A DNA stretch of 63,097 bases, filler included, from Babesia bigemina (GCF_000981445.1; 17 parts of 17 records of this genome joined end to end with filler, not necessarily neighbours in it); one strand, 5' to 3'; numbered from the whole stretch's first letter, positions 5,715 through 60,933 are shown. Numbers and translations are program-made. The notes: a model not told the origin generated them from the sequence alone.

Positions 5715-7590
5715 ATCTACTCTACATCGCCCCTTAACCCACTCTACATCGCCCATTTACCCACTCTACATCGCTCCCTAACCCACTCTACATCGCTCCC
5801 TAATCCACTCTACATCGCTCCTTTATCCACTCTACATCGCTCCCTAACCCACTCTACATCGCTCCCTAATCCACTCTACATCGCTCCTTTATCCACTCTA
5901 CATCGCTCCTAATCCACTCCACATCGCCCCTTTACCCACTCTACATCGCCCCTTTACCCACTCCACATCGCCCCTTAACCCACTCTACATCGCTCCTTTA
6001 CCCACTCTACATCGCCCCTTAACCCACTCTACATCGCTCCTTTATCCACTCCACATCGCCCCTTAACCTCTCTACATCGCTCCCTTACCCACCCTTCATC
6101 GCTCCTTTACCCACTCCACATCGCCCCTTTATCCACTCTACATCGCTCCCTTAACCCACTCTACATCGCTCCTTTATCAACTCTACATCGCCCCTTAATC
6201 CACTCTACATCGCCCCTTTATTCACTCTACATCGCCCCTTTATTCACTCTACATCGCTCCTTAACCCACTCTACATCGCTCCTTTATCCACTCTACATCG
6301 CCCCTTTGACCACTCTACATCGCTCCTTAACCCACTCTACATCGCCCTTTTATCCACTCTACATCGCCCCTTTATCCACTCTACATCGCCCCTTTATCCA
6401 CCTTACATCGCCCCTTAACCTCCTCTAATCGCCCCTTTACCCACTCTACATCGCCCCTTTATCCACTCCACATCGCTCCTTTACCCACTCCACATCGCTC
6501 CCTTACCCACTCTACATCGCTCCTCTATCCACTCTACATCGCCCCTTAACCCACTCTACATCGCCCCTTTACCCACTCTACATCGCCCCTTAATCCACTC
6601 TACATCGCTCCCTAACCCACTCCACATCGCTCCCTTACCCACTCTACATCGCCCCTTAACCCACTCCACATCGCCCCCTAATCCACTCTACATCGCCCCC
6701 TAACCCACTCCACATCGCCCCTTAACCCACTCCACATCGCTCTACATCGCCCCTTAACCCACTCTACATCGCCCCTTAACCCACTCTACATCGCCCCTTT
6801 ACCCACTCTACATCGCTCCTTAACCCACTCTACATCGCTCCTTTACCCACTCTACATCGCCCCTTTACCCACTCTACATCGCCCCTTTAATCCACTCTAC
6901 ATCGCCCCTTAACCCACTCTACATCGCCCCTTAACCCACTCTACATCGCCCCTTTATCCACTCTACATCGCCCCTTTACCCACTCTACATCGCCCCTTTA
7001 TCCACTCTACATCGCCCCTTAACCCACTCTACATCGCTCCCTAACCCACTCTACATCGCTCCCTAATCCACTCTACATCGCCCCTTTACCCACTCTACAT
7101 CGCCCCTTTACCCACTCTACATCGCTCCCTAACCCACCCTACATCGCTCCTCTATCCACTCTACATCGCTCCCTAACCCACTCTACATCGCTCCCTAACC
7201 CACTCTACATCGCTCCTTAACCCACTCTACATCGCTCCTTTATCCACTACACATCGCTCCCTCTAATCCACTCTACATCGCCCCTTTACCCACTCTACAT
7301 CGCCCCTTAATCCACTCTACATCGCTCCTTAACCCACTCCACATCGCCCCTTAATCCACTCTACATCGCTCCTTAACCCACTCTACATCGCTCCTTAATC
7401 CACCTTACATCGCTCCCTAACCCACTCCACATCGCCCCTTTATCCACTCCACATCGCTCCTTTATCCACCCTTCATCGCTCCTTTATCCACCCTTCATCG
7501 CCCCTTAACCCACTCTACATCTCCCCTAGTCCACTCCACATCGCCCCTTTATCCACCTTACATCGCCCCTTAACCCACTCTACATCGCTC
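5715..7590 (+). repeat. 22-bp array (CCACTCTACATCGCYCCYTWAY)
   Basis: About 1.9 kb of 22-bp units ending ~25 bp before the ves1 leader ATG at 7615. Confidence 0.97.
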
Positions 7591-7614
7591 GAATTACCTC
7601 GCCATACTACCGCT

Positions 7615-10600
7615 ATGACCTCTATAAACCATGATAATAACTTGTGCCTTGTCACCCATCACCTCCCCTCTTCCACTGCTTGCCACTGCCCTGACCATGT
7701 GCCGCCTGGGGAGCTTGACAATAATTTTGACAAAATTTTGAACCTTAAAATTACCTCAAATAACAACCCTACTAACATCCTTAATAACCTCTGCTCCGGC
7801 CTCGAAAAGTTTCTCGGCTTCAACTCTGACTCCAAAGGCTACGACGGCACTGGGATTGTGTACTCGGACCTGGACAGGCTGTGTGACGGGGTGATGGGAT
7901 TTTTGAGTGGTGTTCTCAGTAACATCCAAGGCCATTTAGGGCAGCATAAAGATACAATAGAGCCTGTAATTAAGGTACTTGAAGAGAAAAAACACGCCGG
8001 TAAAGAAGGTTTTAATGCTGCGATTGAAAGTGTGGTCGCAGGGGTGCGGGAGTATAATGGTAATGTAAAGTCTTCTAATGAAGCAGTGATTGAGCCCCTT
8101 CAATTACTGCTCGACTACACCAAGAAAAATGGAGGTGAGTTGATTACTAGCATTAATAATATTCAGGCTGAGAGTCATCGTCTGGATCCACAGCTGGCCG
8201 ACGCCGTAAGGTCCTGCGGGGACCGGCTGAAGGAGGCCACAGAGAGGAGCAAGAGGTGCGCGGAATTTCTGGACCCCAAGGCAAATAACAACACTAAGAT
8301 GAAAAAAAACATTTATGACCTTAATGATAAGTTGCGTGACAAAGTGTTGCATGTTCGTAAGCTTGTTGAGTACGAGAGCCAGCGGCTGGCCAGCGTGCAT
8401 AAGCGGAAAGACGCTGAGTTGAAGGAGACGACGGAGAAGATTAAGACAAGTTTTCGCAATCTCAAGAGCTGCATCAACAAGCAGGTGGGTGACGATATAG
8501 ATAAGCTTGTTAAAAGTTTAATGGTGAGGGTGCAGAAAATTTTGAAGAAGCTGAGGGAGATTAGTAGCAATTTAGAGAAGTATATCAGTGAGCTGGGAGC
8601 GTGGATAAAGGAGGCCGAGGAGTTCGCTACTGCGGCGTTGGAAAGGATTAATAAGATATTAAAACACATGGATGGGACTGCAAGTACGTATACCATGAAT
8701 ATAAAAACGGCGGCCGAGTCACTTGGTCGGGATGTTGAGGACCTTCACAGGGCTGGCAAAAACGTGAAAGATAATATTGCGGATTGGGTGACAAAGGGAA
8801 CGGAGAAAGCAAAACAGCTGGAAGGTTGGAAGACAGCGGCGCAGAGTGTTATCAGTGAAGCTGTTAAGAAGGCGAAAGAGGTGCACGAAGCGTTGGATCA
8901 TGGACAACATGATGCACTAAAACATGAACTTGGTTACAACCTCGAGGAAATACGGAAGGCAGGAGAAGCAGTTGGCGCCGCTAATAATAAGCTGCAGCAG
9001 TATGTTGGAGAGTTGGAGCATTGGAATACGGAGGCCACGGATGTAGTTGGCAAGGCGGATGCAAAATGTAGAGAATTATTTAAAAAATTGGATGACACGT
9101 ATGTAACTAATCGTATGAATGGAACAAAGATAAGGCAGGAAGCTATGGAATTAGAAAGAAAAGGCAAAGCGTTATTGAACGCTTACAATAAAGCGCATAC
9201 AGGTCTTGGGTCCTTAGTCAGAAATATTAAGGAGCAGGTAAATGGACTAAAAAAACACATTGTCAAAGATTTGGAGTTGTTGAAAGGTCAAGTCGAGAAG
9301 GGAATTGAAACGCATGTCAAAAAAATTATAAACGCAGTATTGGGAGCAACGGAAAAATCTAACATGCTAGAATACGATAGCGCATTAGGTCTTAAAGATT
9401 TGCAAAATGGTGTACAATTAACGGATGCATGGAAAAAAATTTTTGAGGGCCTCGACGTCAGCTTGAAACAAAATTCAATTGCGACACATATTGAAATGCT
9501 GTTGTTACAATTAAAAAGCAAGCTAGGTGGGCAATATAATTACGACACTTTGTCTGAAGTTTCAGGCCTTAAGAAAACGCTTACAAACATTATTGAAGAG
9601 TTCAAGAAAGCATCAAGTGAACCGTTCAAGGATCCTACAACAATGACACGCGAAAGTGATGAATTCATGACAGTTATGCATAACTATCATACAAACATAC
9701 AAGATAAGACGCTGCTGCAAAAGATGATTGGCAACGTTAATGGCGCGCTTAAAGATTTCGAGAAACTGGAGGCTTTCAGAGATAAAGAACAAACTGCCCA
9801 AAGACTCACGAATGGCGCTATTGATGATGCTGAGAAAGCTGTTAAAATGCATGTAACTACGATTATAAGTGAGCTGAAGGAGGCCGCTTGGTTCATTGAT
9901 AAGAGCAAGAACAACGGCAATACTCCTAGCGGTTACAGCGGTGACAAAAATGGTATCAAAGATTACATGGTTTTGCTAAGCAACGGTCTTGGTGATACGT
10001 CGAATTGGAGATCACACGGAACTGGTAAAGTGTCTGGCCTCCAAACGATCACTACTGCTATTCGGCAATTGCATCAAGACAGTCTGAACAGAAGCATCAC
10101 AATCACCGGTGGCATCGGCAACATTGGGATTGAGCTCACCAACCTTCGAAATAACATCTTGCTCAACAGTGACAAGAAGGACGTGATCAACAGATTGGAA
10201 GATCTGCATGACGCCGGCTTTGCCAATAATGAAACCTGGCCTGATCAAGCATCCACCAAGGGCCTCGAGACCATCAAGCAAGACATCACCAACGCTCTCA
10301 GTGACATACAAACCCAGGTTACCGATAACCTGGGAATCCTCACCACCTTTGATGAGGCAGCTCTCAAACAGTTCGAAGCGGTGAAGGAGAATCTCACACA
10401 GCTCTGCGAGGCCATCAAAACTGAAGGCACATACGGCGTGGATAATCTCAGGGCATTGCTCAATACGACGATAAAGGAGAAATTGGCGCGTATTAAGAAC
10501 AAACTTGGTGAGCTACAAACCTTTGATTTAAGCGCTGCAATCAGGGATGCTGAGAACTTCCTCACCAGCGCCGATCCAACAGCCCAGGCAACAATCACGT

Positions 10601-11279
10601 CAATCAGAGGCGTAGTAAGCTCCAACGTCGAAGAAGCCCAGAACGATCTCATCACCCAAGTCAACAAGAACTACGTCACGTCAGTGAAAGCCATTCTGCT
10701 AGAGTTCGCGGAGAAAGCCGAGAAGGAGTTGGCGCCTCTACCTAAGGAAATCACCGACGATTTGGACATCGGTTACAAGGGGTTCATGAAGAAATTTGAG
10801 AAGCACTTCGTAACGCACGAAAAGTCAATCAAGACCATCAAAGACATAAATCCTAAGCCCGTTGCGCAAGAAAAATCACCAATGAGTCAGGCGGCAGCAA
10901 AGTTCTTTGGAAGCCTAAATAGGTTTTTGCATGATCTAGAGAAGCAGCCGGACTTCAAAACGGACTATGAAAAAATTAAGCCAACACGTGACGCGCTGGC
11001 TAAGTTGTTCGGAGATCTTGTCACTTCGGAGTACTTCAATCACGAGTTTTCTCGAAATCTATCGGCGCTGAAAGTAACGCTCAGTGAATTGAAGCCTTCA
11101 TTATATGGTGAAGGGAATACCCCTTCGCTTCTCAATGCTCTGAAGAACGGTTTCACGACTTCGGCAACGGAGCTCAACAATGCGTACATCTCGACCTACG
11201 ACAGTGAGAGGTTTGGTGCTGAGCTCGTCGAAAAAGATAAACTAACAGCGTACGGAACCAAGTTAAGTAAGGTCTGCTT
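7615..11279 (+). CDS. ves1: VESA1-like antigen, N-terminal and long helical region, 3'-partial
   Basis: Leader MTSINHDNNLCLVT in frame with LNNLCSGLEKFLGF..GIVYSDLDRLCDGVMGFLSGVL. Open to the gap. Confidence 0.85.
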
Positions 11280-11981: not shown

Positions 11982-12874
11982 ATGTAGAGTGGGTTAGGGA
12001 GCGATGTAGAGTGGATAAAGGGGCGATGTGGAGTGGATAAAGGAGCGATGTGGAGTGGATAAAGGGGCGATGTACAGTGGGTAAAGGGGCGATGTAGAGT
12101 CGGTTAGGGAGCGATGTAGAGTGGATTAAGGGGCGATGTAGAGTGGGTTAAGGAGCGATGTAGAGTGGATAGAGGGGCGATGTAGAGTGGGTTAGGGAGC
12201 GATGTGGAGTGGATAGAGGAGAGATGTAGAGTGGATAGAGGAGCGATGTAGAGTGGGTTAAGGGGCGATGTAGAGTGGGTTAGGGAACGATGTAGAGTGG
12301 GTTAGGGAGCGATGTGGAGTGGGTAAAGGAGCGATGTAGAGTGGGTTAGGGAGCGATGTAGAGTGGATAAAGGGGCGATGTAGAGTGGATAAAGGGGCGA
12401 TGTAGAGTGGGTAAAGGAGCGATGCGGAGTGGGTTAAGGGGCGATGTAGAGTGGGTAAAGGGGCGATGTAGAGTGGGTTAGGGAGCGATGTAGAGTGGGT
12501 TAGGGAGCGATGTGGAGTGGGTTAGGGAGCGATGTAGAGTGGGTTAAGGGGCGATGTAGAGTGGGTTAAGGGGCGATGTAGAGTGGGTTAGGGAGCGATG
12601 TAGAGTGGATAAAGGGGCGATGTAGAGTGTATAAAGGGGCGATGTAGAGTGTATAAAGGGGCGATGTAAGGTGGGTAGAGGAGCGATGTGGAGTGGGTAA
12701 AGGAGCGATGTGGAGTGGGTAAAGGAGCGATGTAGAGTGGGTAAAGGGGCGATGTAGAGTGGGTAAAGGGGCGATGTAAGGTGGATAAAGGGGCGATGTA
12801 GAGTGGGTTAAGGGGCGATGTAGAGTGGGTTTGGGAGCGATGTAGAGTGGGTTAGGGAGCGATGTGGAGTGGAT
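11982..12874 (-). repeat. 22-bp array
   Basis: Reverse complement of the 5715-7590 unit. Confidence 0.97.
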
Positions 12875-12888
12875 AATAATCACCACTT

Positions 12889-13203
12889 GTGACCATGTCA
12901 TCGCTGCCGTGACCATCTCATCGCTGCCGTAACAATAACTTGGTCAGGTGTTTGGTCACCACGTTGGTCAGCACTTTGGTCAACACTTTGGTCAACACAT
13001 TGGTCACCACATTGGTCAGCACTTTGGTCACCACGTTGGTCAGCACTTTGGTCAGCACGTTGGTCAGCACATTGGTCACCACGTTGGTCAACACGTTGGT
13101 CAGCACATTGGTCAGCACATTGGTCAGCACATTGGTCAGCACATTGGTCAGCACCTTGGTCAGCACATTGGTCAACACGTTGGTCAACACGTTGGTCAAC
13201 ACT
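12889..13203 (-). repeat. 20-bp array (12889-12933) and 12-bp array (12940-13203)
   Basis: gaccatgtcatcgctgccgt units, then ttggtcagcac units. Confidence 0.9.
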
Positions 13204-13327: not shown

Positions 13328-16300
13328 TTATGGTTGCAGGTAAAACACTCTGTTAAGCTTGTTAACACGCGCGGCGGCGAGTAGTGATTGAGCAGCAATC
13401 CTATGACTCGAGGGACTATGTAAATGCGATTTGATGTGGAGCAGGTCTAGGCGGATGACCATTATGTGGATGAGGTAGAGGAACGAGAGGCACCAGAGGG
13501 CTAATACGGTGATTGAGAAATTTGTTCTAATATCCCACAAGAATTGATCGATTTGCTTGCGTAATTCAATAAGCAGAGATTTCTCACCAAGCATCAATTT
13601 CAACGCTTCACAGAAATCTTTGCACGTCCTCTGCGTAGCTATATTATTTGCGATGCCACTGAGACCCAATGGATTGCCGAATGTGAAACCGTATTTAAAC
13701 AGATTAGGATGTGTGTTGCGGCACTGTACTATTGACTTGCAATTTTTGTCGTGATTCTTGCCGTCGAGTTTCTTTGCATCAGTGTTATCACTCTTTGACT
13801 CTATTGCTTCATATGCCTTTTTTACTTCGCATCCTTCAGTACAGCATTTTTCATAGCACCTGCTACCAGGCTTCTTGCAGGTTCCACAGCAGTCGTCATA
13901 CAGTTTCTTCAACAGGTCGTAAAAAGTCTCCGTGATGTAAACGATCCAAGACAGGTGATTGGTCTTATGCTTGTTGGAATAATAGCTGTAGGTGTTTAAT
14001 GCCAGTGGCTGAACGTAAAGACCACACGGCTTATTCGAGCCGGTTTTACAGTCAGTGATGCTGATCAGATCACCGTTGGCATGACTGCTTTTGTGTACTT
14101 TACTACTGCACAATGTGCTGGGATCAAGAGCTTCATACTGATTGCCGAAATATGCTTCGTTGATGGCTTCTTTGAATGCCGCTTGAGTATGCGTATGCGA
14201 CTTTGTGACTTCATAAAAGCCGCCAGTGTAATACGCGAGATAACTATAATAATACGCGTATACATCACCTAGCGATTGCGGCGGTTTCTGCATAAGACAC
14301 ATGAAGTAACCACAAAGTTTCGTAAGTGGACTATCCTGCTTTCCACAAAATGCATCAAGCACCTTCCTAAGATGTTCACCGTTTTTAGTATGCGATGCCA
14401 TAACGCTGATTTCATTAAATCCCATCGGTGTCTTACACGGTATGCCGCGATGGTTGGACACCGTGCATTCCAATTTGCAACCTGGTTTCTTTAATGAATG
14501 TGGTAAGAAGCCAGGTAAACCATCCTCTAAGTATGACTGTAACGGTGACTTTACACCGCACTTAGGGTGTAACTCACACGTTTGGTTGACCTTTTGGTTA
14601 CACTTTTGGTCAGCGCATTGCTTTGAATTGCACTTCCAGTCTGACCCACCGATTGCATTGCCATACAAACAACCCCGCCAGCCGGAACAGATTTCGTCGT
14701 TGCAGCATTGGCAGTATACGAAGTAGAGCTGTTGGTAAAGACGATGCAGTATGTCTGCTAGCATATCGATGCATTGGCCGTAGCGAGAGGGGTACGAGAA
14801 GCCTTGCGAATTAGTGTTGAAGTCCACCGCGTATATTCCGTCCGCCTGTCCATGGCCAAGTATCGTCGTCAGTACGTCGTGAGCCTGATGGCATACTTCC
14901 GTCAGTATGCCTGATATTCCTCCAACGGTGATGTTCTCCGGGTAGGCAGGCAGACTATCGGCGTCGTCGGTTTCAAGCAAGATTTCGTCCCCCTCACTGT
15001 TAGCAGCGTTGTTCTCCTCCTTCTCAAACAGCTCACTGAATCCGTTAAATGACAACGGTTGGTAGACAGGATTGTATGGAAAACCGGACAACCATAGCAG
15101 CATTTCGTATACGCTCGACGGTTGCTTGGTGGCGAACATGGTACCGTAGTGGCAGACTTCGTAGTATTCGTGTAGGTGGGTGAACAGTTTCAATAGAATA
15201 CCTTTACCGTGTCTATAGTACTCTTTGTAGTCTTCCCAAGATTTAAAGTCGGTAGGCTCTCTATTGAATTCACCATGATTTCTGAACACTCTACTTAAAC
15301 GCACCGCGACATCTCGACCGGTGTTGTTTTCGTTGATGAGACTCGGAATTTGGTAACCGGATTTTAGTAAATATTTCTGTAGGTCATTCACATCATTATC
15401 AGTTTTCGTTTGTACACGAATTTTACGCCACTCTTTACCGCCGTGGTAGAACAAATGATGCGACTCATTAAAAAGCATCGTCGCGCAAGTCAAAAACACT
15501 TTCGCACCGTGTCTTCCGTCAGTCGTCAGAATCATATTTTGATCGTAGTCCTGCACTTTTTGAGCGCTTTCCTTATTAGGGTCTTTTATCAACCACTGAC
15601 CGATTGCCGGCGAGCCCTCGTACCTACTGACGTACGCCCTCCCAAGTTCACCAATCAATTTGCGAAGTCCACCTTTCATGGCATCAGGCAACTCCGGATG
15701 ATTATGACCAGCGAACGTGGATGGCTGCAGTGCGCTAAGTGTATTAGTAAAATCAGCGAGATTACGGGAGAATGTATGATCAAAGTGATTCGAGGAGGAG
15801 AGGTCGTCGAGCGAAAGGCCGAGCATGGTTTTCACGTTAGCAATTTTGGTGGATGCAACAGTGTCTTTCTTCGTTTGTTGTGCCGTTGAGATTTTAACTT
15901 GATCTTCGACGTATTGGAGCAACTCTTCTAAATACATTCTGACTTGGGTGGTGGCTGTTCGTATTTCCGTTTGTTTTTGTAGCGTGTCGAGATAGGTATC
16001 ATTCGCCTTCATTTTGCCCATCATTCCCTTCAATCCGCTTTCCAGATCTTGCTGAATAATTTCACCAATTTCTGTATATTTCTGAGTGACCAATCCTTTG
16101 AGCGCCTCCAACTCTTTCTCTTTGGTGTCCGCAAACATTCTCAGGGCCTCCTGTTTAATGCTTCTCTTGGCGGTGGCACTATCGCTGGTAACTTTTGAGG
16201 TGATTGTGGATTGGCAGAGATTAGTGGCTTTCTCTAGCGTGCCTTCTTTTAATGTTCTAACTTGTGCATCCAGGGTAGAGGTCACTTGTTGGTTTAGTTC

Positions 16301-16570
16301 GTTGGTCTTTTCATCAATCTGATTCTTCACACCGACCAGCTTTTTGTCGTGTTTATCGTTTTTATCTTTCTTGTCTTCTAGGATAGCGCTAATGTTTCTG
16401 AGCTCCATATTAACTGAGTCGATAACATAAGCAAGTCCTTGCTTTATTTTTTCGGCAGGCATTGACACATCGTTGTTAAGCTTAGTTTGAATTTTTTCGA
16501 TCAATGGTTTCTCAACTAATTTTTTAAGTTCTTCGCCTAGTGCTTTAACACCGTCGATAGCAGCTGTCAA
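13328..16570 (-). CDS. ves1: VESA1-like antigen, 5'-partial, type-B tail (ARVNKLNRVFYLQP)
   Basis: 1080-aa frame with KSPLQSYLEDGLPG, CKTPMGF, TM helix and RLDLLHIKSHLHSPSSHRIAAQSLLAAA tail. Confidence 0.9.
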   Translation of the reverse strand: MTAAIDGVKALGEELKKLVEKPLIEKIQTKLNNDVSMPAEKIKQGLAYVIDSVNMELRNISAILEDKKDKNDKHDKKLVGVKNQIDEKTNELNQQVTSTLDAQVRTLKEGTLEKATNLCQSTITSKVTSDSATAKRSIKQEALRMFADTKEKELEALKGLVTQKYTEIGEIIQQDLESGLKGMMGKMKANDTYLDTLQKQTEIRTATTQVRMYLEELLQYVEDQVKISTAQQTKKDTVASTKIANVKTMLGLSLDDLSSSNHFDHTFSRNLADFTNTLSALQPSTFAGHNHPELPDAMKGGLRKLIGELGRAYVSRYEGSPAIGQWLIKDPNKESAQKVQDYDQNMILTTDGRHGAKVFLTCATMLFNESHHLFYHGGKEWRKIRVQTKTDNDVNDLQKYLLKSGYQIPSLINENNTGRDVAVRLSRVFRNHGEFNREPTDFKSWEDYKEYYRHGKGILLKLFTHLHEYYEVCHYGTMFATKQPSSVYEMLLWLSGFPYNPVYQPLSFNGFSELFEKEENNAANSEGDEILLETDDADSLPAYPENITVGGISGILTEVCHQAHDVLTTILGHGQADGIYAVDFNTNSQGFSYPSRYGQCIDMLADILHRLYQQLYFVYCQCCNDEICSGWRGCLYGNAIGGSDWKCNSKQCADQKCNQKVNQTCELHPKCGVKSPLQSYLEDGLPGFLPHSLKKPGCKLECTVSNHRGIPCKTPMGFNEISVMASHTKNGEHLRKVLDAFCGKQDSPLTKLCGYFMCLMQKPPQSLGDVYAYYYSYLAYYTGGFYEVTKSHTHTQAAFKEAINEAYFGNQYEALDPSTLCSSKVHKSSHANGDLISITDCKTGSNKPCGLYVQPLALNTYSYYSNKHKTNHLSWIVYITETFYDLLKKLYDDCCGTCKKPGSRCYEKCCTEGCEVKKAYEAIESKSDNTDAKKLDGKNHDKNCKSIVQCRNTHPNLFKYGFTFGNPLGLSGIANNIATQRTCKDFCEALKLMLGEKSLLIELRKQIDQFLWDIRTNFSITVLALWCLSFLYLIHIMVIRLDLLHIKSHLHSPSSHRIAAQSLLAAARVNKLNRVFYLQP

Positions 16571-16699
16571 CTTCCCATATATCTTGAGGGCTCGGNNNNN
16601 NNNNNNNNNNNNNNNNNNNNNNNNNNNNNNNNNNNNNNNTTAATTAATTAANNNNNNNNNNNNNNNNNNNNNNNNNNNNNNNNNNNNNNNNNNNNACGA

Positions 16700-19102: not shown

Positions 19103-20810
19103 CCTTATCACTCTACATCGCCCCTTTATCCACTCTACATTGCCCCTTAACCCACTCTACATCGCCCCTTTATCCACTCTACATCGCTCCCTTATCCACC
19201 CTTCATCGCCCCTTACTACACTCTACATCGCCCCTTTACCCACTCTACATCGCTCCCTTATCCACCCTTCATCGCCCCTTACTACACTCTACATCGCCCC
19301 TTAACCCACTCTACATCGCCCCTTAATCCACTCTACATCGCTCCTCTATCCACTCTACATCGCCCCTTTACCCACTCTACATCGCTCCTCTATCCACCTT
19401 ACATCGCCCCTTTATCCACTCTACATCGCCCCTTAACCCACTCTACATCGCCCCTTAATCCACTCTACATCGCTCCTCTATCCACTCTACATCGCCCCTT
19501 TACCCACTCCAGATCGCTCCTTAACCCACTCTACATCGCTCCCTTACCCACTCTACATCGCCCCTTTACCCACTCTACATCGCTCTCTAACCCACTCTAC
19601 ATCGCCCCTTTACCCACTCTACATCGCTCCTCTATCCACCTTACATCGCCCCTTTATCCACTCTACATCGCCCCTTTACCCACTCCACATCGCCCCTTAA
19701 CCCACTCTACATCGCTCCTTAACCCACTCCACATCGCCCCTTAACCACTCTACATCGCTCCCTAATCCACTCTACATCGCCCCTTTATCTACTCCACATC
19801 GCCCCTTTATCCACTCTACATCGCGCCTTTATCCACTCTACATCGCCCCTTTACCCACTCTACATCGCTCCCTAACCCACTCCACATCACCCCTTAACCC
19901 ACTCTACATCGCCCCTTTACCCACTCTACATCGCTCCCTAACCCACTCTACATCGCTCCTTTACCCACTCTACATCGCTCCTTTATCCACTCTACATCGC
20001 TCCTTTACCCACTCTACATCGCCCCTTTACCCACTCCACATCGCCCCTTTACCCACTCCACATCGCCCCTTTACCCACTCTACATCGCTCCTTAACCCAC
20101 TCTACATCGCTCCCTAACCCACTCTACATCGCCCCTTTAACCACTCTACATCGCTCCCTAACCCACTCTACATCGCCCCTTAACCCACTCTACATCGCTC
20201 CCTAATCCACTCTACATCGCTCCTTACCCACTCCACATCGCTCCCTAATCCACTCTACATCGCTCCTTTATCCACCTTACATCGCTCCTTTATTCACTCT
20301 ACATCGCTCCCTAACCCACTCTACATCGCCCCTTAACCCACTCCACATCGCCCCTTTATCCACTCTACATCGCCCCTTTACCCACTCTACATCGCCCCTT
20401 AACCCACTCTACATCGCCCCTTTATCCACTCCACATCGCCCCTTAACACACTCTACATCGCTCCCTAACCCACTCTACATCGCCCCTTAACCCACTCCAC
20501 ATCGCCCCTTTATCCACTCTACATCGCCCCTTTATCCACTCTTCATCGCCCCTTTACCCACTCCACATCGCTCCATAACCCACTCTGCATCGCCCCTTTA
20601 TCCACTCTACATCGTCCCTTAACCCACTCTACATCGCCCCTTATCCACTCTACATCGCACCTTAACCCACTCCACATCGCCCCTTTATCCACTCTACATC
20701 GCTCCTTAACCCACTCCACATCGCTCCCTGATCCACTCTACATCGCTCCTTTATCCACTCTACATCGCTCCCTTACCCACTCTACATCGCCCCTTTATCC
20801 ACTCTACATC
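19103..20810 (+). repeat. 22-bp array
   Basis: About 1.7 kb of 22-bp units. Confidence 0.97.
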
Positions 20811-20872
20811 CCCTGAATCACCTCGCCATATTACCGCTATGACCTCTTTAAACCACAATAATAACTTGTGCC

Positions 20873-25438: not shown

Positions 25439-25466
25439 AGCGGTATTATGGCGAGGTAATTAAAGG

Positions 25467-26686: not shown

Positions 26687-26700
26687 AATAATCACCACTT

Positions 26701-27442: not shown

Positions 27443-27448
27443 GCTAAC

Positions 27449-40363: not shown

Positions 40364-40380
40364 CGAGTACATCAGGGTAC

Positions 40381-43025: not shown

Positions 43026-43046
43026 CTTCCCCTTCCCCTCCCAGAT

Positions 43047-44876: not shown

Positions 44877-45935
44877 TTACGGCTGTAGATACGATATCTT
44901 GGCAAGCCTTCCGACTTGCGCTGCAGCCAACAGTGATTGCGCCGTTATCTTGTGCGATGACGGTATCCTCAGGTGTGAGCGTATGTGGAGCACATCCAGT
45001 CTGCCAACCATTACGCAGATTAGGTAGAACAGGGATAGTGACCAGAGTGCCACGTTAAGCCAGATGAACGGCTGCCTGATGGTGAAAATGAAATTATCAA
45101 TGGCTTTGAAGAGTTGCACAAGATGTGAGTCCTTCTCAAATGCCTCCGCAAATACATCACAGAAATCTCTGCACGTGCGTTTCGTTTGCGGTCGTTCACT
45201 TCCGTTCAGCTTCTCTGCATTGCCGAGAACAAAGCCGTATTTTGCCAATGTCGGCAGCGTAGCATTGCACTGTACAATGGATTTGCATTTGGGATCGTGA
45301 TATCGTGGCGGTTGATACGTGGTGGATGTAGTTCTACATTCCTTGATGCACGCCTTTTCATGGCAATTCGATCCCCTGGCACCGCATTTGGAATTGCACT
45401 CATCGTACAATTTCTTAAGCAGATCGTAGAACGTCGCCGTCAGGTAGACAATCCACGACAAATATTTATCGGCGTGTTCTGACGAGAAAGTCTCGTAGAT
45501 GGCGTGAGTGATGGGACGCAGATAAGGACCGCATACGACGGAGTCCTTTGATAAGCATACGAGACTGCCCAGGCTGCCATCGGAGTGGCCCTTCTTCAAT
45601 GCTGAGTGGCTAGGGGTAAATAAGTGGTAGACTTTCAAATCATTATACTGACGCCCGAAATTGGCAGCGGTGACTTTCTCTGTAAATGCCAGTTGTTTAT
45701 GATCATTGCCATGCATACCCCAGCGATCGGTGAGGTGATAGTAGAAGCTGAACATGTCCGCCAGCGTTTTCGGCGCACTAGGCAAAAGGCAGTTGAGGTA
45801 ACCGCACAGTCTAGTGAGAGGCGATTTCGCACTCCCACAGAAATACTCAAGCACCTCGCATATATTCCGGCCAATCATCGTATGCGACGCGATGGCACCG
45901 ATGTCAGCGAAGCCCATTGGAGTTCTGCACCGCAT
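44877..45935 (-). CDS. ves1: ves1 C-terminal fragment, type-A tail, 5'-partial
   Basis: CRTPMGF, YLSWIVYL, TM helix, AQVGRLAKISYLQP. Confidence 0.9.
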   Translation of the reverse strand: MRCRTPMGFADIGAIASHTMIGRNICEVLEYFCGSAKSPLTRLCGYLNCLLPSAPKTLADMFSFYYHLTDRWGMHGNDHKQLAFTEKVTAANFGRQYNDLKVYHLFTPSHSALKKGHSDGSLGSLVCLSKDSVVCGPYLRPITHAIYETFSSEHADKYLSWIVYLTATFYDLLKKLYDECNSKCGARGSNCHEKACIKECRTTSTTYQPPRYHDPKCKSIVQCNATLPTLAKYGFVLGNAEKLNGSERPQTKRTCRDFCDVFAEAFEKDSHLVQLFKAIDNFIFTIRQPFIWLNVALWSLSLFYLICVMVGRLDVLHIRSHLRIPSSHKITAQSLLAAAQVGRLAKISYLQP

Positions 45936-46077
45936 ACCCAGGTGAATTACCCCCAGTGCACAGGACAGACTGATCCCNNNNNNNNNNNNNNNNNNNNNNN
46001 NNNNNNNNNNNNNNNNNNNNNTTAATTAATTAANNNNNNNNNNNNNNNNNNNNNNNNNNNNNNNNNNNNNNNNNNNN

Positions 46078-51267: not shown

Positions 51268-53467
51268 GCAGAGATTCGTGTGAAATCATCTGAAGGTTGA
51301 CGGTCATGCCATTATTGAGAGCAGCGTCGAGCTTATCAATTTCCTGCTTCACAAAAGACAGCGCCTTTGTAATCTCATTGCCTGGGGTGGTAGTAAGTTT
51401 ATCACTAATGTCATTAATTTTCCTAATAGCTTCCTCAACGTTCCCTATTTTAATCTGATTCTCACGATCTCCAATAAGCCAATCAAGATCGGAGGCGGCC
51501 TGACTAGCTCTTCCGACCAGTCGGTGTAGTATCGCTTGTACAGCAGCTTGAAGAACGTGTTCGTGAATGGGCGGTTTATTATTTAATTTTGATTTGACTT
51601 TCTTCGTAATCTCTCCAGCAATGGTGTCTGACAGTGTATACATCGCCGTACTAGTTGTCACACCGCCTACTTGCTTCTTATATATTGCCTCAAGTCCGCT
51701 TACAAAAATACGTATACCTTCCTCGACGGCTGTCATATGATGTTGAATTTTGCCTTTGCGTTCATCATCTTCTGGATCGATCATACGTTTCACTAATTTG
51801 CCGGCGTTGTCAATGTCGGTACCAAGCTGACTTTTAATTACGTCCGCAATATTTGTGATCTTCGCACCCTCAATTTCACCACTGTCTGTTTTTATAAATG
51901 TAGTATCAAAATAATCGTTATATCCACTTTCTCCCTTAACCGTCTGAACATAGTGCTTAATTTTGAGCTTAACATATTCATCCTCCTTCAAAATGTTTTC
52001 AATCCATCCCTTAACCCTTTTTCCAAACTCTTCAGTTCCACTAAACGTCTCGGCCCACTTTTTAATGTTATCCGCTATTTGCTGCATCGTTCCAATAGGT
52101 TTCCGTGTGGGTTTACCCAGAGCGCTACCCGCGACTGGATTTGCATCTGCATTTGTCAAACCATCGACAAGATCTATAATCTCACGTTTAAGTTCACTCA
52201 TAAATTCAAACATACCTGTTTTGGCACCATTGTTATCATTACCTATCTCCTTTTTTATTCTATCGAACGGCTCCTGCACATTCTTAACATGAACCTTTAT
52301 CGCATTTTTGATATCATCTCTCAATGATTTCAGATTACTCTTTACTTTAGTTGCAAACGATGCGACATTGTCTTTAACGATAGTGAACTGTGTCTGCAGG
52401 AAAGCGCTAGAATCATACTTGACATATTTCTCAATCTCCGTTTTAATGTCATATAAGTTTCCACTTATTTTAATCTTATATTCTTCGTCAAATTTGCCAA
52501 ACAACTGCTGCACTTCGTGATACGTCGTGTCAAGATAATATTTTAATGACGCGAAATGCTCATCCTTCTTTGCCCTTAGATTCTCAATTTCAACCACGAC
52601 CTTGCTAAACACAGTATGTAAGGTATCCTGTAACGCATCACAACTTACATTTATGGCACTGCCAACATTCGTCTTCTGTGTCTCCAAGTCGCCATCCACT
52701 ACCTTCACCTGCCTCTTGAAATCCTCCTTGCCAGCGCTCTCCTTCAACAGCCACAATGCGTTTCTAACATCTTTCATTTCACGTTTAATTTGTTCTCGCA
52801 ACGACTTATTGAGCACATTGACTTTATCTTTTTCTATAGTATTCAACTGAGTCTCAATCTCTCCGACCACCGTGGTCCAGTCCTCTAATTGCTTCTGAAG
52901 TTTTTCGTGACCTTTACCTGCAACACGTTTCATGAATTCATCGCCAATTTTATTGTCTTTTAACTCACTTAATTCGCTTGTTACTGCTCCAGTTTTCCTG
53001 CCAAGATACATCTCATACCTGTCAAGCCACTGGGACACCTGCGTAATCTGAGAGGAAAATACACTAGAGCCCTTACCTATCGAATTTTGTAAATTGCTTA
53101 ATATATCATTTAATTCTTTATTAGTATCATAAGTTGTCACTTCATTTTCGTTTTTCACCGCACCAAGCACACCACTCAAAAATCCCATCACCCCGTCACA
53201 CAACCTATCCAGGTCAGAGTACACTATCCCAGAGCCGTCGTAACCTTTGGAGTCTTTGTCGAAGCCGAGAAACTTTTCGAGGCCAGTGCAGAGGTTAGTA
53301 AGGATGTTAGCAGGGTTGTTATTTGAGGTAATTTTAAGGTTTAAAATTTTGTCAAATTTCTTGTCAAGCTCCCTAGGCGGCACATGGTCAGGGCAGTGGC
53401 AAGAGGTGGAAGAAGGGAAGCGAAGGGTGACAAGGCACAAGATATTGGTATGGTTTATAGAGGTCAT
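51268..53467 (-). CDS. ves1: VESA1-like antigen N-terminal region with intact leader, 3'-partial
   Basis: MTSINHTNILCLVT leader in frame with YSDLDRLCDGVMGFLSGVL. Confidence 0.85.
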
Positions 53468-53491
53468 AGCGGTATTATGGCGAGGTAATTT

Positions 53492-54690
53492 GAGCGATGT
53501 AGAGTGGGTAAAGGAGCGATGTGGAGTGGGTTAAGGGGCGATGTAGGGTGTGTTAGGGAGCGGTGTAGAGTGGGTTAAGGGGCGATGTGGAGTGGGTAAA
53601 GGAGCGATGTGGAGTGGACAAAGGGGCGATGTAGAGTGGGTAAAGGGGCGATGTAGAGTGGGTTAAGGGGCGATGTAGAGTGGGTAAAGGAGCGATGTAG
53701 AGTGGGTTAAGGAGCGATGTAGAGTGGGTTAAGGGGCGATGTAGAGTGGATAAGGGAGCGATGTAGAGTGGGTTAAGGGGCGATGTAGAGTGGGTTAGGG
53801 AGCGGTGTAGAGTGGGTTAAGGGGCGATGTAGAGTGGGTTAAGGGGCGATGTAGAGTGGGTTAAGGGGCGATGTAGAGTGGGTAAGGGGCGATGTAGAGT
53901 GGATTAGGGAGCGATGTAGAGTGGGTAAAGGGGCGATGTAGAGTGGGTTAAGGGGCGATGTAGAGTGGATAAAGGAGCGATGTAGAGTGGATAAAGGAGC
54001 GATGTAGAGTGGGTTAAGGAGCGATGTAGAGTGGATAAAGGAGCGATGTAGAGTGGATAAAGGGGCGATGTAGAGTGGATAAAGGGGCGATGTAGAGTGG
54101 GTTAGGGAGCGATGTAGAGTGGATAAAGGGGCGATGTAGAGTGGATAAGGGGCGATGTAGAGTGGATAAAGGGGCGATGTAGAGTGGGTAAAGGGGCGAT
54201 GTGGAGTGGATAAGGGGCGATGTAGAGTGGGTTAGGGAGCGATGTAGAGTGGGTTAAGGGGCGATGTAGAGTGGGTTAGGGAGCGATGTAGAGTGGATAA
54301 AGGGGCGATTAGAGGAGGTTAAGGAGCGATGTAGAGTGGATTAGGGAGCGATGTGGAGTGGATTAGGGAGCGATGTAGAGTGGATTAGGGAGCGATTAGA
54401 GGAGGTTAAGGAGCGATGTAGAGTGGATTAGGGAGCGATGTGGAGTGGATTAGGGAGCGATGTAGAGTGGATAAAGGAGCGATGTGGAGTGGGTAATAAT
54501 CACCACTTTGGTCACCATGTCATCGCTGCCGTGACCATGTCATCGCTGCCGTGACCATATCATCGCTGCCGTGACCATGTCATCGCTGCCGTGTCCATGT
54601 CATCGCTGCTGTAACCATGTCATCGCTGCCGTGACCTTAACTTGGTCATGGCATTGGTCAACACTTTGGTCAGCACGTTGGTCACCACAT
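53492..54690 (-). repeat. Repeat cassette: 22-bp (53492-54494), 20-bp (54511-54635), 12-bp (54642-54690)
   Basis: Same units and order. Confidence 0.95.
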
Positions 54691-54813
54691 TAGTTAACTA
54701 TAACACAATCACACACAACAATTAATGAGTAAATCAACACAGTAAACAACAATTCATAAGTTAGGTGAGTAGGTGATGCTAGGTGAGTGTAGATAGTAAA
54801 CACGTGAGTACGA

Positions 54814-54867
54814 TTATGGTTGCAGGTAAAACACCCTGCCCAGTTTGTTAACACGCGCAGCAGCGAG
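54814..54867 (-). CDS. ves1: Last codons of a type-B ves1 (LAAARVNKLGRVFYLQP*)
   Basis: Manual translation. Followed by the conserved type-B 3' flank. Confidence 0.85.
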   Translation of the reverse strand, partial: LAAARVNKLGRVFYLQP

Positions 54868-57319: not shown

Positions 57320-57646
57320 AAAAATTGTCTATCCGGTGATCAAAGAAGATACTGCCGTAACCTGTACGCGCAATTACAAAACGTACTAAAATCGCAATAT
57401 TTCACCAAATTATTTGAGGAATGTGACAACTTCATTTGGACTATCAGACAACCCTTCTCCTACCTTGTCCTTACCCTCTGGCTCCTCTCTTTCCTGTACC
57501 TCATCCACATCATGGTCATCCGCCTAGACCTCCTCCACATCAAATCGCATCTACATAGTCCCTCGAGTCATAGGATTGCTGCTCAATCACTACTCGCCGC
57601 TGCACGTGTTAACAAGCTTAACAGAGTGTTTTACCTGCAGCCATAA
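57320..57646 (+). CDS. ves1: ves1 C-terminal fragment, type-B tail; near-identical to 27791-28116 (reverse complement)
   Basis: SGDQRRYCRNLYAQLQNVLKSQYF...NKLNRVFYLQP*. Confidence 0.88.
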   Translation, partial: KNCLSGDQRRYCRNLYAQLQNVLKSQYFTKLFEECDNFIWTIRQPFSYLVLTLWLLSFLYLIHIMVIRLDLLHIKSHLHSPSSHRIAAQSLLAAARVNKLNRVFYLQP

Positions 57647-57773: not shown

Positions 57774-60202
57774 GTGCTGACCAAGATGCTGACCAAGATG
57801 CTGACCAAGATGCTGACCAAAGTGTTGACCAACGTGTTGACCAATGTGCTGACCAAGGTGCTGACCAATGCCATGACCAACGTGGTGACCAATGCCACGA
57901 CCTACCACCTGACCAAGTTGATGGTCACGGCAGCGATGACATGGTCACGGCAGCGGTGACATAATTACGGCAGCGACGTCATGGTCACGGCATGGATGAC
58001 ATGGACACGGCAGCGATGACATGGTCACGGCAGCGGTGACATAATTACGGCAGCGACGTCATGGTCACGGCATGGATGACATGGACACGGCAGCGATGAC
58101 ATGGTCACGGCAGCGATGACATGGTCACGGCAGCGATGACATGGTGACCAAGCAGATGACCTAAGTAATGATTATTATCCACTCTACATCGCCCCTTATC
58201 CACTCTACATCGCTCCCTAATCCACTCCACATCGCCCCTTTATCCACTCTACATCGCTCCCTAACCCACTCTACATCGCCCCTTTACCCACTCTACATCG
58301 CCCCTTTAACCACTATACATCGCTCCCTAACCCACTCTACATCGCTCCCTAACCCACTCTACATCGCCCCTTATCCACTCTACATCGCTCCCTAATCCAC
58401 TCTACATCGCTCCCTAACCCACTCTACATCGCTCCCTAATCCACTCTACATCGCCCCTTAACCCACTCTACATCGCTCCCTAACCCACTCTACATCGCCC
58501 CTTTGTCCACTCTACATCGCCCCTTTATCCACTCTACATCGCCCCTTAACCCACTCTACATCGCTGCCTAACCCACTCCACATCGCCCCTTATCCACTCT
58601 ACATCGCTCCCTAACCCACTCTACATCGCTCCCTTACCCACTCTACATCGCCCCTTTACCTACTCCACATCGCTCCCTAACCCACTCTTCATCGCTCCTT
58701 TATCCACTCTACATCGCTCCTTTATCCACTCTACATCGCTCCTTAACCCACTCTACATCGCCCCTTTACACACTCTACATCGCCCCTTTACCCACTCTAC
58801 ATCGCCCCTTTATCCACTCTACATCGCTCCCTAACCCACTCTACATCGCCCCTTTATCCACTCTACATCGCCCCTTATCCACTCTACATCGCTCCCTAAC
58901 CCACTCTACATCGCTCCTTTACCCACTCCACATCGCTCCCTAACCCACTCTACATCGCCCCTAATCCACTCCACATCGCCCCTTTATCCACTCCACATCG
59001 CTCCTCAATCCACTCTACATCGCCCCTTAACCCACTCTACGTCGCCCCTTTATGCACTCTACATCGCCCTTTTATCCACTCTACATCGCTCCCTAATCCA
59101 CTCTACATCGCTCCCTAACCCACTCTACATCGCCCCTTTATCCACTCCACATCGCCCCTTTATCCACTCTACATCGCCCCTTTATCCACTCTACATCGCC
59201 CCTTTATCCACTCTACATCGCTCCTTTATCCACTCTACATCGCCCCTTAACCCACTCTACATCGCCCCTTATCCACTCTACATCGCTCCTTATCCACTCT
59301 ACATCGCTCCTTAACCCACTCTACATCGCCCCTTTATCCACTCTACATCGCCCCTTAATCCACTCTACATCGCCCCTTAACCCACTCTACATCGCTCCTT
59401 AACCCACTCTACATCGCCCCTTAATCCACTCCACATCGCCCCTTTACCCACTCTACATCGCTCCTTAACCCACTCTACATCGCCCCTTTACCCACTCTAC
59501 ATCGCCCCTTTATCCACTCTACATCGCCCCTTACCCACTCTACATCGCCCCTTTATCCACTCTACATCGCTCCTTTATCCACTCTACATCGCTCCTTAAT
59601 CCACTCTACATCGCCCCTTTACCCACTCTACATCGCCCCTTTATCCACTCTACATCGCTCCTTTATCCACTCTACATCGCCCCTTAACCCACTCTACATC
59701 GCCCCTTAACCCACTCTACATCGCTCCTTTATCCACTCTACATCGCTCCTTAACCCACTCTACATCGCTCCTTAACCCACTCTACATCGCCCCTTTACCC
59801 ACTCTACATCGCCCCTTAATCCACTCTACATCGCTCCTTAACCCACTCTACATCGCTCCCTTATCCACTCCACATCGCTCCTTAACCCACTCTACATCGC
59901 TCCCTTATCCACTCCACATCGCCCCTTTATCCACTCTACATCGCTCCTTAACCCACTCTACATCGCCCCTTATCCACTCCACATCGCCCCTTTCTCCACT
60001 CTACATCGCCCCTTTCTCCACTCTACATCGCCCCTTAACCCACTCTACATCGCCCCTTTGTCCACTCTACATCGCCCCTTTACCCACTCTACATCGCCCC
60101 TTATCCACTCTACATCGCCCCTTTACCCACTCTACGTCGCTCCTTTATCCACTCTACATCGCCCCTTAACCCACTCTACATCGCCCCTTAACCCACTCCA
60201 CA
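57774..60202 (+). repeat. Repeat cassette: 12-bp (57774-57916), 20-bp (57921-58145), 22-bp (58177-60202)
   Basis: Same units and order. Longest 22-bp array (~2 kb). Confidence 0.95.
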
Positions 60203-60232
60203 ACCCTCCAATCACCTTGCCATATTACCGCT

Positions 60233-60933
60233 ATGACCTCTTTAAACCATCCTAATAACTTGTGCCTTGTCACCCTTCCCTTCCCCTCTTCCACCTCTTG
60301 CCACTGCCCAGACCATGTGCCGCCTAGGGAGCTTGACAGGAAATTTGACAAAATTAAAACCCTGAAAATACCTCAAATAACAATGCTACTAACATCCTTA
60401 ATAACCTCTGTTCCGGCCTCGAAAAATTCCTCGGCTTCAACTCTGACTCCAAAGGCTACACTGGCCAGGGGATTGTGTACTCTGACCTGGATAGGCTGTG
60501 TGACGGGGTGATGGCGTTTTTGAGTGGTGTGCTTAGTGCGGTGAAAAACGAAAATGAAGTGACAACTTATGATAAAAATGATAAAAACAACATTAATACA
60601 GTTATTACCACTTTGACTAAACAAATTGGCTCCGGGCGTACTGGGCTTGTGGAGTCTGTCGCCGCGGTGAAGGGGTGGTTGGAGGGGTATAATAAGAATG
60701 TTAATGATAAAACAAAAAAAGTAACTGATGAATTAAACAAATTAAACAGCGAAACTATTGCCAATAAAATCAATGAAACGAATGCAAATGACCCCCTTCA
60801 AAATCAGCTGTCCACTTGGACAAATACAGTGTCCAGCCTTTATAGTGAGATTGTTAAGATAAAAAGTGAACACATTAGCAAGCTAGATAAGGCGTTGAAA
60901 ACGAAGATAAACGGTGAAAATGAGGTTTGTTGA
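60233..60933 (+). pseudogene. ves1: ves1 5' part with a 1-nt deletion frameshift in the leader (~60356-60370)
   Basis: Leader ORF 60233-60511 and body frame 60475-60933 (YSDLDRLCDGVMAFL) are out of frame. Confidence 0.75.

What the first reader, a model, noticed from the sequence alone, without database searches (positions are those of the whole stretch)
5715..60400. Candidate silent ves1 archive: nested 5'-truncated cassettes capped by a 22-bp array
Seen: all ten ves1 5' ends lie directly downstream of a 22-bp array and enter the protein at four nested points. These are ESIDWLIQV (20900), KSL..EKSKLECP (41423), upstream of IQLG.LAGQLGGF (29376, and by leader homology the interrupted copy at ~35890), and N.P.NIL.NLC (about 7760, 11810, 25290, 39740, 53320, 60380). 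Only two (7615, 53467) have an in-frame ATG, yet the bodies stay open for hundreds of codons. Known: B. bovis varies VESA1 by segmental gene conversion, and Trypanosoma brucei silent VSGs are flanked upstream by 70-bp repeats. Inference: these are start-less donor cassettes whose upstream homology is supplied by the 22-bp array. The head-to-tail layout differs from the divergent ves1alpha/beta pairs of B. bovis.
Basis: partly seen in the sequence, partly recalled or inferred. Interest (0 to 1): 0.85.

Follow-up and report, generated by a model that had tools for sequence, protein, structure and literature searches.

The report
Start-less Babesia surface-antigen gene archive
In a cattle blood parasite, many copies of the ves1b surface-antigen gene lack their normal front end and sit in rows behind a stack of short DNA repeats; they likely form a mostly silent spare-parts archive whose inner segments would be copied into an intact active gene to change the parasite's coat.

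Summary
Observation largely confirmed, mechanism corrected. The window is 17 separate contigs joined by artificial spacers, so it is not one locus. All ten 22-bp arrays precede a ves1b 5' end that lacks the family N-terminus (KKLTDCPENLRE) and enters at four nested conserved motifs. Nine share a leader. It is broken in 4 of 6 class-1 copies, while about 4,400 body codons stay open.

Among Babesia bigemina homologs, the full N-terminus occurs in 24 of 31 chromosome-scale models and 2 of 72 small-contig models. B. ovata gives 23 of 42 versus 1 of 95. In published B. ovata RNA-seq, 17 of 17 matched start-less models are under 1 RPKM. The highest ves1b seen (487 RPKM) is full-length and shares identical 308- and 369-residue tracts with a silent tandem unit.

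Those tracts begin inside the coding region. Copying from the array would delete the recipient's start, so the 70-bp-repeat analogy is unlikely. The best reading is a subtelomeric donor archive used by intragenic segmental conversion, like vlhA, pilS or msg. Silence of these particular loci, direction of copying and the array's role are untested. New variant of a known kind.

The parts
5719..7590 (+). 22-bp array A (~85 units), C-rich on the ves sense strand
7591..7773 (+). Shared leader A; ATG 7615 open into the body
   Evidence: junction with the array bridged by contigs of runs X2 and X3
7774..11279 (+). ves1b body A, class 1 (enters at NILNNLC), open to the contig end
11380..11981 (-). Cassette B: leader (ATG 11952, stop at 11829) and class-1 body from 11793
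11982..13202 (-). 22-bp array B (11982-12872) with 20-bp and 12-bp arrays upstream
13328..16594 (-). 3' part of the upstream ves1b (ends VFYLQP), head-to-tail with B
19109..20810 (+). 22-bp array C
20811..23925 (+). Cassette C: short leader (ATG 20839 out of frame) and body from ESIDWLIQV 20900, the longest class
24059..25466 (-). Cassette D: leader (GTG 25438, stop 25330) and class-1 body from 25279
25467..27666 (-). 22-bp array D (25467-26684) with 20-bp and 12-bp arrays
27791..28498 (-). 3' end of the upstream ves1b (VFYLQP), head-to-tail with D
28656..29566 (-). Cassette E: partly duplicated leader (ATGs 29538 and 29402, both closed by stops) and body from 29376; clusters with proteins labelled ves1b
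29567..30229 (-). Short 22-bp array E (4.7 units) with 20-bp and 12-bp arrays
32445..33692 (+). 3' part of the upstream ves1b (VFYLQP), head-to-tail with F
33846..35692 (+). 12-bp, 20-bp and 22-bp (34271-35692) arrays before F
35693..35920 (+). Cassette F: class-E leader and a few ves codons, then interrupted
36008..36342 (-). End of a Babesia retroelement ORF joined antisense to F
   Evidence: 91% to a B. bigemina hypothetical protein, 54% to B. caballi reverse transcriptases
38536..39918 (-). Cassette G: leader (ATG 39890, first stop 39773) and class-1 body from 39731
39919..40368 (-). 22-bp array G; its far end is joined to an inverted internal ves1b fragment (40370-40649, + strand)
40755..41423 (-). 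Cassette H: body fused directly to the array at KSL..EKSKLECP, no leader
41422..42747 (-). 22-bp array H (41422-42188) with 20-bp and 12-bp arrays
51268..53491 (-). Cassette I: leader ATG 53467 open into the class-1 body (53308)
53492..54867 (-). 22-bp array I (53492-54494), 20-bp and 12-bp modules, and the last codons of the upstream ves1b
57320..57646 (+). 3' end of the upstream ves1b (VFYLQP), head-to-tail with J
57774..60202 (+). 12-bp, 20-bp and 22-bp (58175-60202) arrays before J
60203..60930 (+). Cassette J: leader (ATG 60233, frameshifted) and class-1 body from 60391
3..3140 (+). 3' part of the upstream ves1b (ends KISYLQP), co-oriented with A
3292..5673 (+). Long spacer type: 24-bp array, 75-bp array (3926-4689), 172-codon Cys-rich membrane ORF (4702-5217), 12-bp and 20-bp arrays
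30376..32334 (-). Second long spacer: 24-bp and 75-bp arrays and a 179-codon Cys-rich membrane ORF (30912-30376)
43038..45977 (-). ves1b 3' part (KISYLQP, 45977-44877) followed by 24-bp and 75-bp arrays

Best explanation
These ten loci are Babesia ves1b copies that lack the family's N-terminus and follow a 12/20/22-bp repeat stack; they likely lie near chromosome ends and likely act as a mostly silent donor archive whose internal segments would be copied into an intact, transcribed ves1b gene by segmental gene conversion. Shown here: the anatomy, the broken leader, the open bodies, the split between intact and start-less models in two species, and mosaic tracts with ends inside coding sequence. 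Inferred: crossovers use coding homology at or downstream of the conserved motifs where the cassettes begin (SIDWLIQV, KL.CP, IxLG.LAG.LGGF, NILNNLC..SDLDRLCD), so the recipient keeps its own promoter, start and N-terminus. The bodies would stay open because stops are selected against once copied, while the leader is never copied and decays. The array is most likely a telomere-side spacer that helps silence, duplicate or shuffle whole cassettes between chromosome ends rather than priming the switch; this last step is the weakest. Candidate recipients in B. bigemina are the two MRHVPKKLTDCPENLRE loci (P0001, P0125).
For: Leader versus body: 4 of 6 class-1 leaders carry stops or a frameshift within 53 codons, against no internal stop in 4,442 body codons; pN/pS is 0.72 versus 0.27. 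Census: full N-terminus in 24 of 31 B. bigemina models on contigs >500 kb versus 2 of 72 on small contigs, and 23 of 42 versus 1 of 95 in B. ovata. Chromosome ends: published coordinates place ~150-210 kDa models in co-oriented rows pointing inward at seven chromosome ends (PMC4066756 supplement rows), and body E clusters with BBBOND_0200070/80 in one of them. Expression: all 18 proteomic rows labelled BbigVes1b are led by chromosome-3 genes, and the 12 whose sequence I held are all full-length. In B. ovata RNA-seq matched by protein length, 17 of 17 start-less models are under 1 RPKM, while 5 of 16 full-length ones exceed 1 (486.6, 35.4, 10.7, 2.8, 1.0; Fisher p 0.018). Conversion signature: the 487-RPKM gene P0030 is identical over residues 355-662 and 686-1054 to the second unit of tandem model P0041 (0.30 RPKM), with 26-64% identity before the tract and mostly 6-56% after it; no other of the 24 full-length B. 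ovata genes has such a tract longer than 118 residues. Window mosaics: C and contig 2 share 564 bp exactly and then fall to 79-92%; P0121 matches C over 90 residues and then E over 162. P0001 and P0125 have 185 and 202 residues in exact tracts shared with start-less proteins, against 0-61 for the 24 chromosome-scale full-length genes.
Against: Peptides were also assigned to chromosome-end models that lack the canonical N-terminus, for example BBBOND_0314000 (12 peptides, 7 used for quantitation), 0314010, 0212360 and the 0200070 group. This fits direct translation as well as donation. Four ves-like B. ovata small-contig rows whose N-termini I did not see have 1.7-34.9 RPKM, and 11 of 16 full-length genes are also under 1 RPKM. 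Two window cassettes and about 18 database models have an open leader frame, and in-frame GT-AG pairs with non-consensus donors exist for 7 of the 8 leader-bearing cassettes tested. The codon-position contrast alone is not significant (p 0.24). Direction of copying is unknown. Mixed parasite populations, haplotigs or chimeric assembly could mimic mosaics. Start calls in the databases are automated, small-contig models can be cut by contig ends, and both homolog lists stop at 120 hits. The B. bigemina records may share an assembly with the window, so they are not independent. Recent long tracts between cassettes and the chromosome-internal B. bigemina genes are rare (longest 36 residues).
Confidence: 0.65

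Rival explanations
1. The 22-bp array supplies upstream homology as the T. brucei 70-bp repeats do: an expression site carries the same array downstream of its own start exon, and whole cassettes are copied in from the array onward.
For: One-to-one pairing of array and 5' end. Entries C, E and H each fall at an AG in phase 0 after a pyrimidine-rich stretch. Rearrangement junctions lie at the array in G and H. The array is abundant in four public runs.
Against: No common-phase acceptor lies downstream of the leader stops in class 1. Full-length models run unbroken through LTDCPENLRESIDW. Observed tracts end inside coding sequence. B. bovis conversion needs only 2-35 bp patches.
Confidence: 0.1
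2. The loci are expressed genes that make N-terminally shortened VESA1b, started from the leader ATG (directly or through a 12-codon first exon) or from the conserved Met after SDLDRLCD.
For: ATG at the same place in 8 of 9 leaders. Open in A and I and in about 18 database models. In-frame Met 41 codons into all six class-1 bodies. Peptides assigned to start-less chromosome-end models.
Against: The leader is disrupted in 4 of 6 class-1 copies and absent in H. DNA upstream of the ATG is about as conserved as the leader itself. 17 of 17 matched start-less B. ovata models are under 1 RPKM. The N-terminal motif kept by every full-length member is missing.
Confidence: 0.12
3. They are non-adaptive by-products: recent subtelomeric duplicates that have lost their starts and have not yet decayed.
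For: The retroelement junction in F, the inverted fragment at G and the fusion at H show an unstable region. Most long exact tracts in B. bigemina are between cassettes.
Against: Bodies diverge to about 20-40% protein identity yet stay open while the adjacent leader breaks. The same split occurs in B. ovata. The top-expressed B. ovata gene seen carries cassette-identical tracts.
Confidence: 0.1
4. The array-to-gene junctions are misassemblies of short repetitive contigs.
For: Small unplaced contigs, host-like contigs and artificial spacers in the window.
Against: The array-leader junction is bridged by contigs in runs X2 and X3. The same leader-derived starts occur in dozens of database models, including chromosome-scale ones. 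A long-read B. ovata assembly shows the same split.
Confidence: 0.03

Closest known systems
BbigVes1b family (Jackson et al. 2014, PMC4066756)
   Same: Same protein family: the cluster partners of body E (CDR94850, CDR94851) are labelled ves1b. Transposition, mosaicism and only 35% LAT-like pairs are already reported.
   Different: In the sections and supplements read, no split into intact and start-less copies, no nested 5' ends and no repeat stack is described.
B. bovis truncated ves1 'functional pseudogenes' and segmental gene conversion into the LAT (PMC2034396, PMC7485966)
   Same: Truncated copies were proposed as donors; conversion tracts have intragenic ends.
   Different: B. bovis ves1 are 75% interstitial, and over half are divergent pairs. 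Here start-less copies are the majority of small-contig models, in tandem rows with a fixed repeat spacer. The B. ovata tract seen (~700 codons) is far longer than the ~100-bp mean in B. bovis.
Mycoplasma synoviae vlhA, Neisseria pilS, Anaplasma msp2 pseudogenes (PMC4534519 passages)
   Same: Tandem silent partial copies recombine into an intact gene at conserved sites; vlhA has five such sites.
   Different: These are bacterial, with a single expression locus. Here at least 26 full-length models exist, and each cassette has a long satellite spacer.
Pneumocystis msg-I / UCS / CRJE (PMC5676039 passages)
   Same: Subtelomeric tandem antigen genes lacking promoter and start, beginning at a conserved junction.
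   Different: msg-I has one 33-bp junction and one UCS, and its genes presumably point toward the telomere. Here there are at least four entry motifs and the related rows point inward.
T. brucei silent VSG arrays with 70-bp repeats (PMC8612549 passages)
   Same: Subtelomeric archive with an upstream repeat before each silent gene.
   Different: 70-bp repeats are shared with the expression site and guide pairing; intact VSG donors carry their own start (recalled). These cassettes do not, and sharing of the array with an active locus is unknown.
P. falciparum rep20 upstream of subtelomeric var genes (recalled, no call)
   Same: Degenerate ~21-bp repeat on the telomere side of inward-pointing antigen genes.
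   Different: var genes are complete and switch in situ, and rep20 is not repeated before every gene.

Membership tests
BbigVes1b | Homology to annotated ves1b proteins | tested here: met
BbigVes1b | Conserved C-terminal domain with hydrophobic segment ending YLQP | tested here: met
   Seven 3' ends in the window. None is on the same reading frame as a studied 5' end, because contigs end first; database members of the same leader classes carry it.
BbigVes1b (intact gene) | N-terminus M..KKLTDCPENLRE | tested here: not met
   Absent in all ten loci and in the whole window
B. bovis LAT | Divergent ves1alpha/beta pair | tested here: not met
   Co-oriented in six contigs; no divergent pair of intact genes
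Silent donor archive (vlhA/pilS/msg type) | Donors lack a usable start | tested here: met
   8 of 10 have no open ATG frame into the body without splicing; splicing is not excluded
Silent donor archive (vlhA/pilS/msg type) | Donors are not transcribed | tested here: inconclusive
   17 of 17 matched B. ovata models under 1 RPKM, but four unmatched rows higher and peptides assigned to start-less B. bigemina models; the window's own loci were not measured
Silent donor archive (vlhA/pilS/msg type) | Donor segments appear in the expressed gene | tested here: inconclusive
   308- and 369-residue identical tracts between P0030 and P0041 in B. ovata; direction and clonality unknown
Silent donor archive (vlhA/pilS/msg type) | Unidirectional transfer over time | not testable with these tools
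   Needs clonal time series
VSG / 70-bp repeat system | Repeat upstream of every silent gene | tested here: met
   10 of 10
VSG / 70-bp repeat system | Same repeat at the expression site | not testable with these tools
   No DNA of an intact locus was obtained
VSG / 70-bp repeat system | 5' conversion ends in the repeat | tested here: not met
   Shared tracts seen have ends inside coding sequence; these are genomic mosaics, not observed switches

The most novel reading that the evidence does not exclude
B. bigemina and B. ovata run a two-tier antigenic-variation system not yet described in Apicomplexa. A few dozen intact ves1b loci can be switched on in situ, and they are fed by a larger telomere-side library of start-less cassettes cut at fixed conserved junction motifs. 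Each cassette is packaged with a 12/20/22-bp satellite stack that silences and shuffles it, and the MRHVPKK loci are dedicated recipients for the long cassette classes.
Probability: 0.4. Interest if true: 0.8.

Novelty: new variant of a known kind. Interest (0 to 1): 0.62.

Why it matters
How B. bigemina and B. ovata vary their surface antigen is unknown, and databases list these loci as ordinary hypothetical or 'ebh' genes, often with spurious starts or as fused pairs. If they are donors, the expressed repertoire is much smaller and the combinatorial archive much larger than annotated. The reading names testable recipients (P0001, P0125 and BOVATA_004360) and predicts where conversion tracts should end. 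It would also place a piroplasm alongside trypanosomes, Pneumocystis and bacteria as a convergent cassette system.

Tried and rejected
No genome is held for the window. No RNA holder was listed, so expression of these loci was not measured. Contig depth was not used as copy number or expression. DNA upstream of a full-length gene was not obtained: metagenome scans with P0125 and with the array pattern found nothing. A hidden upstream exon with the canonical N-terminus was rejected. Special G-quadruplex potential of the array was rejected: G4Hunter means of 0.97-1.07 are below base-shuffled means of 1.10-1.17. Rfam gave no match. Pfam gave no VESA1_N hit for any of 16 window proteins, only coiled-coil noise below cut-off; one B. 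ovata homolog of 9 proteins scanned had a short hit. The small Cys-rich ORFs had no longer homolog, no exact record and only sub-0.9 atlas hits. A separate origin of cassettes and intact genes was not supported: in a quick, unfinished tree of the last 330 residues of 83 proteins the two classes are intermixed (13 changes, at least 8 forced), though more clustered than shuffles. Retrotransposition as the cause of the 5' truncations was considered because of the retroelement at F; no support was seen, since entry points are shared by many copies and the spacer is stereotyped. Earlier scan findings: none returned.


Full report
Nature of the window. The 63-kb window is 17 contigs of 2.0-11.3 kb joined by 16 identical N44-TTAATTAATTAA-N44 spacers. 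It is not a locus, and only relations inside a contig count. Three contigs look like cattle repeats (one has RVT_1 at E 4.6e-41; the BovB, L1 and satellite names are recalled) and one begins with telomere repeats. All 240 listed homologs of cassette C, apart from the window's own two proteins (shown without names), are named Babesia bigemina or B. ovata (120 of 148 and 120 of 137 hits shown). Body E clusters at 90% with CDR94850 and CDR94851, which are labelled ves1b in a published table. The genes are therefore BbigVes1b. Four window proteins are themselves on record, so the B. bigemina records may share the window's assembly and are not independent of it.

Observation. There are ten clusters of the 22-bp unit (104-2,028 bp), each C-rich on the ves sense strand and each followed by a ves1b 5' end. 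The canonical N-terminus (M..KKLTDCPENLRE) is absent from the window. The array is the last module of a fixed spacer: stop codon of the previous ves1b, ~130 bp, 12-bp array, 20-bp array, 22-bp array, leader. Six contigs show the previous gene head-to-tail. Nine loci share a leader, with ATG in eight and GTG in D; H is fused straight to the array. Only A and I read through. In class 1, B, D and G have stops and J has a frameshift within 53 codons, while the nine bodies hold 4,442 codons with stops only within about 60 nt of contig ends. Leader pN/pS is 0.72 against 0.27 for the next 42 codons; the codon-position contrast alone is not significant (p 0.24). The last ~30 leader codons weakly resemble coding sequence that precedes LLNNLC in B. 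ovata proteins, so they are probably decayed gene. The array-leader junction is bridged by contigs from two other runs.

Genome-wide pattern. Among 103 B. bigemina hits, the full N-terminus is in 24 of 31 models on contigs over 500 kb and 2 of 72 on small contigs; at least 35 of those 72 start in the same leader. In B. ovata, a long-read assembly, the figures are 23 of 42 and 1 of 95. Many B. ovata models of 3,000-4,600 residues look like two tandem units fused. Coordinates in the Jackson 2014 proteomics supplement show ~150-210 kDa models in co-oriented rows directed inward at seven chromosome ends, and E belongs with one of these rows. Subtelomeric position of the window's contigs is thus inferred, not shown. 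These counts rest on automated start calls and capped hit lists.

Expression. All 18 proteomic rows labelled BbigVes1b are led by chromosome-3 genes; the 12 I could inspect are full-length. Against this, peptides were also assigned to chromosome-end models without the canonical N-terminus, for example 0314000 with 12 peptides; no unplaced-contig identifier occurs in that table. In the B. ovata RNA-seq table (parts 189-190 of 194 and 24 length look-ups; genes matched by length; two ambiguous lengths dropped), 17 of 17 start-less models are under 1 RPKM. Five of 16 full-length models exceed 1, led by BOVATA_004360 at 486.6. Four ves-like small-contig rows not in my protein set reach 1.7-34.9 RPKM. 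The window's own loci were not measured.

Recombination. P0030 (BOVATA_004360) is identical over residues 355-662 and 686-1054 to the second unit of P0041 (0.30 RPKM), with 26-64% identity before the tract and mostly 6-56% after it. That unit begins at the same ISLG.LAG motif as cassette E in the fused model. No other of 24 full-length B. ovata genes has a tract over 118 residues from a start-less model, and the 118-residue one belongs to the second most expressed gene seen. In the window, C and contig 2 share 564 bp exactly and then diverge. P0121 matches C and then E, with the switch around the IxLG.LAG block. The IxLG.LAG.LGGF/SPSPS module is in 0 of 24 chromosome-scale full-length B. bigemina genes but is in P0001. 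P0001 and P0125 have the most exact tracts shared with start-less proteins, which makes them candidate recipients. A quick tree of C-terminal regions intermixes intact and start-less genes. Direction of transfer is unknown, and mixed populations or chimeric contigs could produce some of these patterns.

Mechanism. The best reading (0.65) is a mostly silent archive feeding intact loci by segmental conversion that starts and ends in coding sequence. This explains open bodies beside a decaying leader, entry points at conserved motifs and the P0030 tract. It also matches B. bovis, where tract ends need only 2-35 bp of homology. Expressed shortened proteins (0.12) remain possible, because A and I are open and weak-donor splice options exist for 7 of 8 cassettes tested. 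Passive decay gets 0.10 and misassembly 0.03. The array's own role is the least certain step. Junctions at G and H suggest it is a breakage or exchange point, and it shows no G-quadruplex excess.

Comparison and novelty. Truncated ves1 donors were proposed for B. bovis in 2007, and cassette archives are known from vlhA, pilS, msp2, msg and VSG. Five literature searches and the texts read showed no description of the intact/start-less split, the nested ends or the repeat stack in B. bigemina or B. ovata. The library lacks most subscription papers. What I read: PMC4066756 abstract, passages, sections 13, 22 (part 1 of 2), 23, 24 and 26, supplement legends and searched rows of the proteomics table (figures, including gene models and the RNA-seq plot, not seen and may bear on this); PMC5660447 passages, parts of supplement 1 and 30 of 81 ves1b rows of supplement 2 (GFF not readable); passages only of PMC10463595, PMC6630957, PMC2034396, PMC5676039, PMC4534519, PMC8612549, PMC12025327 and PMC7485966. 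Verdict: a new variant of a known kind, interest 0.62.

Noticed in passing
window 35920-36342 (-): The end of a Babesia retroelement ORF is joined antisense to cassette F. It is 91% identical to BBBOND_0305640 and ~54% to B. caballi reverse transcriptases. B. ovata RT homologs show 319-740 RPKM in the published table.
   Followed up: partly
window 4702-5217 (+) and 30376-30912 (-): Small Cys-rich, Pro-rich, membrane-anchored ORFs with variable N-halves and an identical C-terminus (..FLVRKIPFCIAFYS), each behind a 75-bp array. They are unannotated and have no homolog found; possibly a second small variant family or ves 3' remnants.
   Followed up: partly
window 3140, 44877 versus 13328, 27791, 33692, ~54815, 57646: C-terminal type tracks spacer type: KISYLQP ends are followed by the 24/75-bp spacer (2 of 2) and VFYLQP ends directly by the 12/20/22-bp stack (5 of 5).
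   Followed up: no
window 7812-7888 and the equivalent block in all nine bodies: Two primers of the widely used SpeI-AvaI diagnostic PCR match the conserved FLGFN..SDLDRLCD block: BiIBN 9 sites and BiIB 4 sites at up to 3 mismatches, none expected by chance; BiIAN had no site. The assay's target is likely ves1b.
   Followed up: partly
window 54968-57219: A telomere-like CCCTAAA(A) tract followed by a different 22-bp satellite (GCTACTCATCTTATCTTATTCA) interrupted by a ~50-bp unit; not linked to the ves contigs.
   Followed up: no
window 36443-38435: A contig with a terminal inverted repeat of about 300 bp and an internal ~520-bp direct repeat inside a 524-codon ORF without a Pfam hit; possible assembly artefact.
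   Followed up: no
window 46078-51167 and 61087-63097: Cattle-like repeat contigs (satellite, BovB-like RT, L1-like; names recalled), likely host contamination in the assembly.
   Followed up: partly
window 16696-18985 (-): An internal ves1b piece of 731 codons preceded by stops within 90 nt of the contig end; no array is visible, so it is uninformative for the count.
   Followed up: partly
B. ovata proteins P0003-P0017, P0041 and similar: Models of 3,000-4,600 residues named 'extracellular matrix-binding ebh' or hypothetical appear to be two tandem ves1b units fused by the gene predictor.
   Followed up: partly
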